A stretch of DNA of 64,000 nt from Escherichia coli (GTDB taxonomy: Bacteria > Pseudomonadota > Gammaproteobacteria > Enterobacterales > Enterobacteriaceae), in the NCBI RefSeq assembly GCF_044324785.1, contig NZ_CP172127.1, one strand, 5' to 3'. Each line of letters opens with the position of its first letter. Position 1 is the stretch's first letter. Made by a program: the position numbers. Of the stretch, positions 35,731 through 38,700 are shown one piece after another.

Positions 35731-38700
35731 TAAGTGAACTGGCGCAGAATCGTCTGGCTATTGGCGTTGGTTACTCTGCCAACGCTTGCGGAGGAGACGC
35801 CGTTACAACTGGCACTGCGTGGTGCGCAGCACGATCAACTGTATCAGCTGTCGTCATCAGGCGTGACCAAAGCCTCGACATTACCTGACTCGCTCACCAC
35901 GCCGTTAGGGAGTTTGTGGAAACTGTATGTTTACGCCTGGCTGGAGGATACCCATCAACCGGAGCAGCCCTACCAGTGTCGCGGAAACTCCCCGGAAGAG
36001 GTTTATTGTTGTCAGGCTGGGGAGAGTATAACGCGCGATACCGCGCTGGTACGTTCCTGTGGGCTCTATTTTGCGCCGCAGCGGTTGCATATTGGCGCAG
36101 ATGTGTGGGGGCAATACTGGCAACAGCGTCAGGCACCTGCGTGGTTAGCGTCTCTTACTACGCTGAAGCCAGAAACCTCGGTAACGGTTAAATCGCTGCT
36201 TGATTCATTAGCGACGTTACCTGCGCAAAACAAAGCTCAGGAAGTCTTACTGGATGTGGTGCTGGACGAGGCGAAAATCGGTGTCGCATCCATGCTCGGT
36301 AGTCGGGTACGGGTGAAAACCTGGAGCTGGTTTGCCGATAATAAACAGGAAATCCGTCAGGGTGGTTTTGCCGGCTGGTTAACCGATGGTACACCGCTGT
36401 GGGTGACTGGCAGCGGCACCAGCAAAACGGTACTAACCCGTTATGCGACGGTGCTTAATCGAGTTTTGCCAGTGCCGACGCAGGTTGCCAGTGGGCAATG
36501 TGTAGAGGTGGAGCTGTTTGCCCGCTATCCGCTGAAGAAAATCACAGCGGAAAAGAGTACGACGGCAGTAAAACCCGGCGTACTTAATGGGCGCTATCGT
36601 GTGACGTTTACTAATGGTAACCACATTACGTTTGTCAGCCACGGTGAGACGACCTTACTGAGCGAAAAGGGCAAACTGAAATTGCAGTCGCATCTCGATC
36701 GTGAAGAGTACGTTGCCAGAGTTCTGGATCGCGAGGCGAAAAGTACGCCACCTGAGGCAGCGAAAGCCATGACCGTGGCGATTCGCACTTTTTTACAGCA
36801 AAACGCCAATCGGGAAGGCGATTGCCTGACCATCCCCGACAGCAGCGCCACGCAGCGTGTTTCTGCTTCGCCAGCTACCACGGGGGCGCGAACGATGACC
36901 GCCTGGACGCAGGATCTTATCTATGCGGGCGATCCGGTTCATTATCATGGCAGTCGCGCTACCGAAGGGACGCTTTCCTGGCGGCAAGCCACGGCCCAGG
37001 CGGGGCAGGGAGAGCGTTACGATCAGATACTCGCGTTTGCTTATCCCGACAATAGCCTTAGCCGCTGGGGAGCGCCACGCTCAACCTGCCAGTTATTACC
37101 CAAAGCGAAAGCCTGGCTGGCGAAAAAAATGCCGCAGTGGCGGCGTATGTTACAAGGCGAGATGGGGTACAACGAACCAGACGTGTTTGCGGTCTGTCGT
37201 TTAGTCTCAGGTTTCCCCTATACCGATCGGCAGCAGAAACGGCTGTTTATTCGTAACTTCTTTACGCTTCAGGATCGGCTGGATTTAACCCATGAGTATC
37301 TGCACCTGGCCTTTGATGGTTATCCCACCGGGCTTGATGAGAACTATATCGAAACGCTGACCCGACAATTATTAATGGACTAATGCTATGCGAAAGATTT
37401 TTCTTCCGTTGTTACTGGTGGCGCTTTCGCCTGTTGCCCATGGCGAAGGTGTGCAGGAAGTCGAGATTGATGCACCGCTCTCTGGCTGGCATCCGGCAGA
37501 GGGTGAAGATGCCAGTTTTTCACAATCGATCAATTACCCGGCGTCGTCCGTCAACATGGCAGATGATCAAAATATCTCAGCGCAGATCCGCGGCAAAATA
37601 AAGAATTATGCTGCGGCGGGTAAAGTTCAGCAGGGCCGGCTGGTGGTCAACGGTGCCAGTATGCCGCAGAGAATTGAATCCGATGGTTCTTTTGCGCGCC
37701 CTTATATTTTTACTGAAGGCAGCAACAGCGTGCAGGTCATCAGCCCGGATGGGCAAAGCCGACAAAAAATGCAGTTTTACTCAACGCCGGGTGCTGGAGT
37801 GATCCGCGCGCGTTTACGGCTGGTTCTCTCCTGGGATACGGACAATACCGACCTCGATCTTCACGTTGTCACACCTGATGGCGAACACGCTTGGTACGGT
37901 AACACCGTGCTGAAAAACAGTGGTGCACTGGATATGGATGTCACGACGGGGTATGGACCCGAGATTTTCGCCATGCCAGCGCCAGTTCACGGGCGCTATC
38001 AGGTGTATATCAACTACTATGGTGGGCGCAGCGAAACGGAATTGACGACCGCCCAACTGACGCTGATTACCGATGAAGGATCGGTCAATGAGAAACAGGA
38101 AACTTTCATTGTACCGATGCGTAATGCTGGCGAGTTGACGCTGGTGAAAAGTTTTGACTGGTGAGCCATCCTTTCACACAACCTGGCTCTCTCTTTTTTC
38201 AGATAAGACTGCTGGGCGATCTGCCGACGCCAGGATATAACCATTAACAAGCGTCGGCAGATTGGTCATTTCTTGTTGTTCGTACGGAAAACTGTCCATT
38301 TACTCCGGCTTTCCTGATTAAGGCAATGGTTTCTAAGCGATACGCATTATTGCAATGGTGACAGAACATTGCGGTAACACGCTTTTACCGCTACCTTAAC
38401 CACACTCCATCGGTCACCTGAGGCGGAGCTTCGCCCCTTTGAAATACCTTGCTTCTTTTCGTACAACCCTGAAAGCCTCGCGCTACATGTTCAGAGCATT
38501 GGCGTTAGTGCTCTGGCTGTTGATTGCTTTTTCATCCGTTTTTTACATCGTTAATGCGTTACATCAGCGAGAATCGGAAATTCGTCAGGAATTTAATCTG
38601 AGTTCCGATCAGGCTCAGCGCTTTATTCAACGCACCTCTGATGTGATGAAAGAGCTGAAGTACATCGCCGAAAATCGCTTATCGGCAGAAAACGGTGTGC

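What the first reader, a model, noticed from the sequence alone, without database searches (positions are those of the whole stretch)
38165..38438. ato operon absent: yfaP is separated from rcsC by only 274 bp, with a 10-bp perfect inverted repeat
In K-12, as I recall, the atoSCDAEB short-chain fatty-acid locus lies between rcsC and yfaP. Here the yfaP stop (38164) and the rcsC start (38439) are 274 bp apart with no ato sequence. The spacer contains a perfect 10-bp inverted repeat, CTGCCGACGC (38221-38230) and GCGTCGGCAG (38251-38260), around a 20-nt loop. This could be a yfaP-operon terminator or a scar or attachment point associated with the presence/absence polymorphism. The strain would be predicted unable to use acetoacetate or short-chain fatty acids through Ato.
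Basis: partly seen in the sequence, partly recalled or inferred. Interest (0 to 1): 0.35.

Follow-up and report, generated by a model that had tools for sequence, protein, structure and literature searches.

The report
Old ato-operon deletion scar with hairpin
The short gap between yfaP and rcsC is the scar of an old, common and already known loss of the ato (acetoacetate and short-chain fatty acid) operon; the inverted repeat sits inside a decayed leftover of atoS and may now end yfaP transcription.

Summary
yfaP ends at 38164, rcsC starts at 38439, and the 274-bp gap has no intact ato gene. K-12 has atoSCDAEB (7,490 bp) at this site.

Two corrections:
- The gap does contain ato sequence. Bases 38190-38269 (minus strand) are a decayed remnant of atoS, about codons 22-49.
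- The inverted repeat is 12 bp perfect (38219-38230 / 38251-38262), or 17 pairs in the extended stem.

The same junction occurs in about 1,536 of 5,426 complete E. coli genomes, including O157:H7 EDL933. It also occurs, diverged, in E. whittamii. The allele is therefore old and common. The lack of ato in E. coli W is already published.

The repeat lies about 55 bp inside the remnant, not at the deletion boundary. It is single-copy and absent from intact atoS. It is not an attachment site or a mobile-element end.

On the yfaP transcript it forms a -29.7 kcal/mol hairpin directly followed by a U-rich tail. The deletion removed the yfaP/atoB terminator. A replacement terminator is my preferred function (about 45%, inferred).

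Side result: intact ato operons of K-12 and E. albertii are far more alike than their flanks, which implies exchange of ato between species.

Overall this is ordinary and low in interest.

The parts
37388..38164 (+). yfaP coding sequence, last gene of the yfaA-T-S-Q-P (alpha-2-macroglobulin) cluster
   Evidence: ORF list. 98% identical to K-12 YfaP. RefSeq annotation of homologous loci.
38165..38189 (.). Left junction segment of unknown origin. Homology to K-12 stops exactly after the yfaP stop codon.
   Evidence: The blastn alignment to K-12 ends at 38164. This is the most diverged part of the spacer versus E. whittamii, 12 of 26 positions.
38190..38269 (-). Decayed remnant of the atoS 5' end (about codons 22-49 of K-12 AtoS)
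   Evidence: 78% identity over 68 bp to K-12 atoS. Peptide PTLVNGYILASADRPAVLSEK versus AtoS PTLTIGYIVETEGRSAVLSEK.
38174..38299 (-). 41-aa ORF, annotated as a hypothetical protein (WP_255233127.1) in some RefSeq genomes. Not a conserved gene.
   Evidence: Stop at codon 9 in the EDL933-type allele, the commonest of those sampled. Frameshift in the C51-type allele. Two stops in E. whittamii.
38213..38268 (+). Hairpin. Perfect 12-bp arms at 38219-38230 and 38251-38262, a 20-nt loop, and 17 pairs in the extended stem.
   Evidence: -29.7 kcal/mol, z = -5.2. Invariant in 9 E. coli alleles. Weaker, with the lower stem shifted by one base, in E. whittamii (-20.4 kcal/mol). Absent from intact atoS, where the arms match at 5 of 12 positions (my hand comparison of the sequences printed).
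38269..38283 (+). U-rich tail directly after the extended stem (TTTCTTGTTGTTCGT; TTTCTTATTTTTCGT in the EDL933-type allele)
   Evidence: The TransTermHP-style tail score is -4.59, in the top 0.24% of all 15-mers in the window. The EDL933 type scores -4.78, and the K-12 yfaP/atoB terminator scores -5.21.
38270..38362 (.). Strongly diverged counterpart of the atoS leader and promoter region, including an apparent 52-nt gap relative to K-12
   Evidence: Alignment A1. About 62% identity to K-12 over 38318-38362.
38363..38438 (+). rcsC-proximal upstream region, shared with ato-positive strains
   Evidence: Identical to K-12 from 38363 onward. Only 3 differences in the last 89 bp (38350-38438) versus E. 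whittamii.
38439..41288 (+). rcsC coding sequence
   Evidence: 949-aa ORF, 99.6% identical to K-12 RcsC.

Best explanation
The 274-bp spacer is the scar of an old deletion of about 7.2 kb. The deletion removed atoS from about codon 50-55 through atoC, atoD, atoA, atoE and atoB, together with the bidirectional terminator shared by yfaP and atoB.

Four pieces remain: (i) about 25 bp of unassignable sequence right after the yfaP stop; (ii) an antisense, decayed fragment of the atoS 5' end; (iii) a strongly diverged atoS leader region; (iv) the rcsC-proximal upstream region, still identical to K-12. These points are shown directly.

The inverted repeat lies inside piece (ii). It is missing from intact atoS, so it arose by substitutions in the relic lineage. 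It was already 11 bp long before E. coli and E. whittamii split.

Inferred, at about 45%: on the yfaP mRNA the repeat forms a long hairpin directly followed by a U-rich tract. This would serve as a replacement intrinsic terminator or 3'-end structure for the yfa operon, shielding the now co-directional rcsC from read-through.

The strain is predicted to lack Ato-dependent use of acetoacetate and short-chain fatty acids, unless ato lies elsewhere in its genome.
For: Synteny and deletion:
- K-12 has 7,490 bp with atoSCDAEB where the window has 274 bp.
- There are no ato genes in the window.

atoS remnant:
- 78% identity over 68 bp, E 4e-9, plus a clear peptide match.
- The ORF is broken in most alleles and in E. 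whittamii, so it is a pseudogene fragment.

Same junction elsewhere:
- 1,536 of 5,426 complete E. coli genomes, including EDL933 and PCN033.
- E. whittamii carries it too, with non-core spacer divergence of 22-46%. That is similar to 4-fold-site divergence of the flanking genes (28-41%), so the allele predates that split.

The arrangement with ato is old as well:
- E. albertii, the most distant Escherichia compared, has the full operon between yfaP and rcsC.

Terminator reading:
- Hairpin of -29.7 kcal/mol, z = -5.2.
- A tail in the top 0.24% of 15-mers starts right after the stem.
- It ranks second by stability among 367 hairpin-plus-tail candidates in the window, and it sits 49 nt after an operon's last stop codon.
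- The ancestral terminator AAAACACCCGATA...TATCGGGTGTTTTT is deleted.
- The 83-bp core 38191-38273 differs from E. whittamii at only 3 sites, against about 23 expected at the 4-fold-site rate (P about 1e-8).
- Two of those three changes fit a helix shifted by one base.
Against: The terminator role is not demonstrated.
- The 20-nt loop lies outside the usual 3-8 nt, and the consensus scan does not call the site.
- The MFE fold pairs the U-tract with an upstream A-rich stretch.
- All three E. coli versus E. whittamii differences in the core hit the stem, and the hairpin loses about 9 kcal/mol there.
- The loop and the flanks are even better conserved than the stem, which a terminator does not explain.
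- The unbiased hairpin-plus-tail scan also returns many intragenic false positives of similar energy.
- Short recombination patches occur at this locus: atoS of K-12 versus E. albertii is a mosaic. The conserved core could therefore reflect history rather than selection.
- The exact breakpoints and any microhomology cannot be recovered, because the junction has decayed.
Confidence: 0.8

Rival explanations
1. The hairpin has no function. It is a by-product of neutral decay, or of templated (quasi-palindrome) mutation, in a dead atoS fragment. The conserved core reflects a short recombination patch between species rather than selection.
For: Differences between the relic and K-12 atoS are concentrated in the two arms: 10 of 24 arm positions versus 9 of 51 elsewhere, by my hand count on the sequences printed. 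That is what a multi-base templated event would give. The structure is weaker in E. whittamii and all 3 core differences hit the stem. Mosaic patches of 130-170 nt are seen in atoS between K-12 and E. albertii. No Rfam family matches. The terminator scan makes no call.
Against: An 83-bp patch with 3.6% divergence, flanked on both sides by 22-46% divergence, is a very short recombination tract. A strong stem directly followed by a top-0.24% U-rich tail, exactly where a terminator was lost, is a notable coincidence. Intact atoS has little complementarity (5 of 12) to seed template switching (my hand comparison of the sequences).
Confidence: 0.38
2. The conserved core is a distal cis-regulatory region for rcsC that already overlapped the atoS 5' coding region. 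Independent deletions spared it for that reason.
For: The segments that are invariant between the E. coli and E. whittamii relics (TTTTTCAGATAAGACTGCTG, GATATAACCA) are also shared with intact atoS. A second, independent deletion (Escherichia sp. MOD1-EC7003) also keeps atoS codons 1-90. The first 166-180 nt of intact atoS are nearly invariant between K-12, E69, MOD1 and E. albertii.
Against: No sigma-70-like promoter is found in the region. The relic and intact atoS still differ by about 22-25% here. The near-invariance of the atoS 5' end is equally explained by mosaic recombination. There are only two deletion events. I found no published rcsC start site in this region.
Confidence: 0.1
3. 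The inverted repeat is the end or attachment site of a mobile element (or a REP-type repeat), and ato was inserted into K-12 at an ancestrally empty site.
For: This is a presence/absence polymorphism with sharp haplotype boundaries at 38164/38165 and 38362/38363. Intact ato is clearly exchanged between species.
Against: The repeat is not at either boundary. The spacer is single-copy per genome (median 1 place). The 'empty' site contains an atoS fragment, so an ato operon was there first. The operon flanks hold no integrase or tRNA gene (annotation). Flanking direct repeats were not searched for. There is no Rfam or repeat-family match.
Confidence: 0.03
4. The minus-strand 41-aa ORF (38299-38174), annotated as a hypothetical protein in some RefSeq genomes, is a real small-protein gene.
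For: It is intact in the window and in about 50 genomes with the window-like allele. PGAP annotates it as WP_255233127.1.
Against: It has a stop at codon 9 in the EDL933-type allele, the commonest of those sampled, a frameshift in the C51-type allele, and two stops in E. whittamii. Only 4 near-identical ORFs exist among 5.8 billion proteins.
Confidence: 0.03

Closest known systems
Strain-to-strain presence/absence of the ato operon in E. coli (for example E. coli W, reported to lack ato while K-12 and B carry it; PMC5909237)
   Same: The same locus and the same gene-content difference. The same junction is in O157:H7 EDL933 and about 28% of complete genomes.
   Different: I found no description of the junction anatomy: the atoS remnant, the hairpin, the age of the allele, or the exchange of the intact operon between species.
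Rho-independent (intrinsic) terminators, such as the K-12 yfaP/atoB bidirectional terminator
   Same: A G+C-rich stem followed directly by a U-rich tract, placed about 50 nt after the last stop codon of an operon. The tail score is comparable, -4.6 versus -5.2.
   Different: A 20-nt loop instead of 3-8 nt. The lower stem has bulges. The tail is interrupted by C and G. The consensus scan does not detect it. No experimental evidence exists.
Gene remnants (pseudogene relics) left at deletion junctions in enterobacterial genomes
   Same: A short, decayed, frame-broken fragment of the first gene of the deleted block, next to an intact neighbouring promoter region.
   Different: Part of the remnant is far better conserved between species than neutral sites are. 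Ordinary relics do not show this.
Quasi-palindrome templated mutation (template switching that perfects imperfect inverted repeats; recalled from the E. coli mutagenesis literature, not tested here)
   Same: Clustered multi-base differences confined to the repeat arms produce perfect complementarity.
   Different: The presumed precursor (intact atoS) has only 5 of 12 complementary positions. The mechanism cannot be tested from sequence alone.

Membership tests
ato-operon deletion allele with atoS remnant | Lies at the chromosomal site that ato occupies in K-12 (between yfaP and rcsC) | tested here: met
   K-12 annotation and alignment.
ato-operon deletion allele with atoS remnant | Residual sequence homologous to an ato gene | tested here: met
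   38190-38257 versus atoS nt 79-145: 78% identity, E 4e-9. The peptide match covers AtoS residues 27-47.
ato-operon deletion allele with atoS remnant | No intact ato genes in the genome | tested here: inconclusive
   None in the 64-kb window. 1,500 of 5,426 genomes lack atoEAD while 1,536 carry the relic, so at least 36 genomes have both. The rest of this genome is not available.
ato-operon deletion allele with atoS remnant | Loss of growth on acetoacetate or short-chain fatty acids | not testable with these tools
   Needs a growth experiment.
Intrinsic (Rho-independent) terminator | Stable G+C-rich stem | tested here: met
   17 pairs, -29.7 kcal/mol, z = -5.2.
Intrinsic (Rho-independent) terminator | Short loop (about 3-8 nt) | tested here: not met
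   The loop is 20 nt. The consensus scan does not call the site.
Intrinsic (Rho-independent) terminator | U-rich tract directly after the stem | tested here: met
   UUUCUUGUUGUU starts at 38269, right after the extended stem. Tail score -4.59, top 0.24% of window 15-mers. The EDL933 type scores -4.78.
Intrinsic (Rho-independent) terminator | Structure kept in relatives (compensatory changes) | tested here: inconclusive
   Invariant within E. coli. In E. whittamii it is weaker (-20.4 kcal/mol), with one mismatch and a shifted lower stem. Only one outgroup is available.
Intrinsic (Rho-independent) terminator | Transcripts end at the site | not testable with these tools
   Needs Term-seq or 3' RACE.
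Mobile-element end, attachment site or REP-type repeat | Located at the boundary of the insertion/deletion | tested here: not met
   The boundaries are at 38164/38165 and 38362/38363. The repeat spans 38219-38262.
Mobile-element end, attachment site or REP-type repeat | Multiple copies per genome | tested here: not met
   Median 1 and at most 2 places per genome for the spacer. One copy in the window.
Small-protein gene | Reading frame kept open in relatives | tested here: not met
   Stops or frameshifts in EDL933-type, C51-type and E. whittamii alleles.
Known RNA family (Rfam 15) | Covariance-model match at or above the gathering score | tested here: not met
   Only two chance miRNA-model hits, E = 6.7 and 9.8.

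The most novel reading that the evidence does not exclude
The ato locus is a long-lived presence/absence polymorphism shared across species. One allele is an ancient deletion, older than the E. coli / E. whittamii split, whose atoS leftover was reshaped into a new terminator or insulator between the yfa operon and rcsC and is now kept by selection. The other allele is the intact ato operon, which moves between Escherichia species by homologous recombination in the flanks. Between K-12 and E. albertii, 4-fold-site divergence is 4-13% inside ato against 34-43% in yfaQ, yfaP and rcsC.
Probability: 0.3. Interest if true: 0.45.

Novelty: already known. Interest (0 to 1): 0.2.

Why it matters
It matters little as a discovery. 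The absence of ato in many E. coli strains (W, O157:H7 and about 28% of complete genomes) is established gene-content variation. It predicts only that such strains cannot use acetoacetate or butyrate through Ato.

Two points could interest specialists in genome evolution. First, a dead gene fragment may have been recycled into a terminator after its neighbour's terminator was deleted. Second, an old deletion allele and an intact operon that is exchanged between species coexist at one locus. Both are testable with simple transcript mapping and population-genomic analysis.

Tried and rejected
- Rfam scan of 37800-38800 at a permissive E-value: only two chance miRNA-model hits.
- Promoter and terminator consensus scan: no promoter. 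The terminator-like calls lie elsewhere (in the rcsC 5' coding region, at 38391-38371 and at 37930-37918 on the minus strand), not at the repeat.
- Search with the 41-aa relic peptide for an intact AtoS with a relic-like N-terminus: only 4 near-identical small ORFs were returned. So there is no sampled donor lineage. One of them (P0004) comes from an error-prone assembly with many split genes and was discarded.
- Search for more relic-bearing outgroups through YfaP homologues: the 85-91% identical hits (P0007, P0014) are ato-positive genomes from frameshift-ridden assemblies, so they add nothing.
- The GTDB scan gave only one relic-bearing outgroup, E. whittamii. In Superficieibacter, Citrobacter youngae and Enterobacillus, yfaP is not next to rcsC or ato, so they give no information.
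- Literature on an rcsC start site or the yfaP-rcsC junction: nothing relevant. The K-12 start-site mapping paper I recalled is not held.
- I considered that the near-invariance of the first 180 nt of intact atoS shows DNA-level selection. I downgraded this after the E. albertii comparison showed mosaic recombination patches.
- My own unbiased hairpin-plus-tail scan ranks the site second of 367 but has many intragenic false positives, so it is suggestive only.
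Full report
**1. The observation**

The ORF list and the sequence confirm yfaP at 37388-38164 (+), rcsC at 38439-41288 (+, TTG start, 949 aa) and a 274-bp spacer.

In K-12 (BW2952, locus L001) the same two genes are 7,490 bp apart. The interval holds atoB, atoE, atoA, atoD, atoC and atoS, all on the strand opposite to yfaP and rcsC.

tblastn with the K-12 Ato proteins finds no ato gene anywhere in the window. The only hits are generic kinase and receiver-domain similarity to RcsC.

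There are 12 perfect base pairs (38219-38230 / 38251-38262) around a 20-nt loop. This becomes 14 pairs with one G-U, and 17 pairs with two single-base bulges.

The window holds only three perfect inverted repeats of 12 bp or more with loops of 3-30 nt. Shuffled sequence gives 0.1. The expectation for a 274-bp spacer is therefore about 4e-4, so the repeat is not a chance feature.

**2. What the spacer is made of**

Homology to K-12 on the left stops exactly at the yfaP stop codon. On the right, the window is identical to K-12 from 38363 onward and diverges sharply upstream of that.

The interval in between is not anonymous. Bases 38190-38257 align to K-12 atoS nt 79-145 at 78% identity (E 4e-9 against the 19-kb locus). 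The minus-strand translation reads ...PTLVNGYILASADRPAVLSEK..., against AtoS ...PTLTIGYIVETEGRSAVLSEK....

From yfaP towards rcsC the spacer therefore holds:
- about 25 bp of unassignable sequence;
- an antisense remnant of atoS, about codons 22-49;
- a badly diverged atoS leader region with an apparent 52-nt gap;
- the rcsC-proximal region.

'No ato sequence' is thus slightly wrong. The spacer is a deletion scar.

The 41-aa minus-strand ORF that covers the remnant is annotated as a hypothetical protein in some RefSeq genomes. It has a stop at codon 9 in the EDL933-type allele, a frameshift in another allele, and two stops in E. whittamii. It is not a gene.

**3. How common and how old**

The 198-bp relic-specific part of the spacer is present at 95% identity or more in 1,536 of 5,426 complete E. 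coli genomes. These include O157:H7 EDL933 and PCN033.

atoE-atoA-atoD is present in 3,926 genomes. The two classes are almost complementary, but they overlap by at least 36 genomes. The LAA island of the STEC strain B2F1 is reported to carry atoSC and atoDAEB (PMC9729726); that this island explains the overlap was not tested. Either way, ato elsewhere in this genome cannot be excluded from 64 kb. That E. coli W lacks ato while K-12 and B have it is published (PMC5909237).

A scan of one genome per species found the same junction in E. whittamii (L005). Its spacer is homologous along its whole length.
- Outside an 83-bp core, that spacer differs from the window at 22-46% of positions.
- This is similar to 4-fold-degenerate sites of the flanking yfaQ, yfaP and rcsC (28-41%).
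- The deletion allele is therefore at least as old as the split between these species.

Other lineages add context:
- Genomes carrying the exact YfaP protein of the E. albertii type strain, the most distant Escherichia compared, have the complete operon in the K-12 arrangement.
- Escherichia sp. MOD1-EC7003 has a different deletion: atoS codons 1-90 fused to atoB codons 355-378.
- E. coli NT1N28 has a third deletion, with atoD next to yfaQ.
- Loss of ato is therefore recurrent.

**4. The intact operon moves between species**

Between K-12 and E. albertii, 4-fold-site divergence is as follows.

| Gene | 4-fold-site divergence |
|---|---|
| yfaQ (flank) | 0.38 |
| yfaP (flank) | 0.34 |
| rcsC (flank) | 0.43 |
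| ato genes | 0.04-0.135 |

The intact operon has therefore been exchanged between Escherichia species long after they diverged, presumably by recombination in the conserved flanks. The laboratory transfer of ato from K-12 into W shows this is possible.

This explains the sharp haplotype boundaries. It also means the relic may be the older resident allele in some lineages, later replaced by an imported operon.

atoS itself is a mosaic between these species. There is 1 difference in nt 1-166, about 22 differences in nt 167-300, and about 3% divergence elsewhere.

**5. The inverted repeat**

It lies about 55 bp inside the remnant, not at either boundary. The spacer is single-copy per genome. No Rfam family matches. 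The 'scar or attachment point' reading fails.

Intact atoS lacks the repeat: the homologous arms are complementary at only 5 of 12 positions (my hand comparison of the sequences). Differences between relic and atoS are concentrated in the arms, 10 of 24 positions against 9 of 51 elsewhere (my hand count on the same sequences).

Using atoS as outgroup, I polarised the three sites that differ between species by hand. The common ancestor of the E. coli and E. whittamii relics already had an 11-bp perfect repeat. E. coli then gained a twelfth pair, and E. whittamii lost pairs.

**6. Likely function**

On the yfaP transcript the repeat folds into a -29.7 kcal/mol hairpin (z = -5.2).

Directly after the extended stem comes UUUCUUGUUGUU. 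Its tail score is in the top 0.24% of all 15-mers in the window. The EDL933-type allele reads UUUCUUAUUUUU, which scores still better.

The deletion removed the classic bidirectional terminator that yfaP shares with atoB in K-12. It also left yfaP and rcsC head-to-tail. Neither the stem nor the tail exists in intact atoS.

The 83-bp core 38191-38273 differs from E. whittamii at only 3 sites. About 23 differences would be expected at the 4-fold-site rate (P about 1e-8). Against the rest of the relic-specific spacer, Fisher p = 4e-6.

I therefore favour a replacement terminator or 3'-end structure for the yfa operon, at about 45%.

Evidence against this reading:
- The loop is 20 nt, and the consensus scan does not call the site.
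- All three differences between species hit the stem, and the hairpin drops to -20.4 kcal/mol in E. whittamii. Two of the three changes do fit a helix shifted by one base.
- The loop and the flanks are even more conserved than the stem.
- My own hairpin-plus-tail scan has many false positives.
- Short recombination patches are documented at this locus.

The main rival is a functionless relic hairpin (about 38%). A distal rcsC control region is a weaker possibility (about 10%).

**7. Verdict**

It describes a common, old and already known gene-content polymorphism.

Interest is low. The two points worth a specialist's glance are the possible recycling of a dead gene fragment into a terminator and the exchange of the intact operon between species.

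Noticed in passing
window 41307-42738: A 1,432-bp IS1397 (IS3 family) copy sits between the convergent rcsC and rcsB genes. It is inserted in the loop of a REP/palindromic unit (GGCGTTTAC | IS | TTACGCCGCATCCGGCA). K-12 and PCN033 have only REP sequences there.
   Followed up: partly
L001 (K-12) versus L029 (E. albertii), whole ato operon: 4-fold-site divergence is 0.04-0.135 in the six ato genes but 0.34-0.43 in flanking yfaQ, yfaP and rcsC. The intact ato operon has been exchanged between Escherichia species well after speciation.
   Followed up: partly
L007 10781-11535 (Escherichia sp. MOD1-EC7003): An independent ato deletion: K-12-type atoS codons 1-90 fused to atoB codons 355-378, with REP-like sequences next to yfaP. 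A third deletion type (atoD next to yfaQ) is in E. coli NT1N28 (hit H152).
   Followed up: partly
window 38191-38273 versus L005: An 83-bp core of the atoS remnant is far better conserved between E. coli and E. whittamii (3 differences) than neutral sites or the rest of the spacer. The reading frame is broken, so the constraint is not on a peptide. Its cause is unresolved.
   Followed up: partly
atoS nt 1-300 in L001 versus L029: Mosaic divergence inside atoS between K-12 and E. albertii: 1 difference in nt 1-166, about 22 in nt 167-300, then about 3%. This suggests short recombination tracts.
   Followed up: no
window 33000-41300: The best match among 5,426 complete E. coli genomes is only 98.3% identical, although the first 338 bp of the rcsC region are identical to K-12. 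The source strain is not in that collection and looks mosaic here.
   Followed up: no
L033 10281-10950 (E. albertii GCA_000155105.1): An IS200/IS605-type transposase gene (PF01797, Y1_Tnp) is inserted between yfaP and atoB in this genome only.
   Followed up: no
window 42768-42799 and 54561-54591: These are the only other perfect inverted repeats of 12 bp or more in the window. One lies in the rcsC-rcsB intergenic region next to the REP and IS1397. The other (GCCACATCCGGCAT / ATGCCGGATGTGGC) is REP-like.
   Followed up: no
L002 1-834 (E. coli PCN033): The alpha-2-macroglobulin gene yfaS is annotated as frameshifted in PCN033.
   Followed up: no
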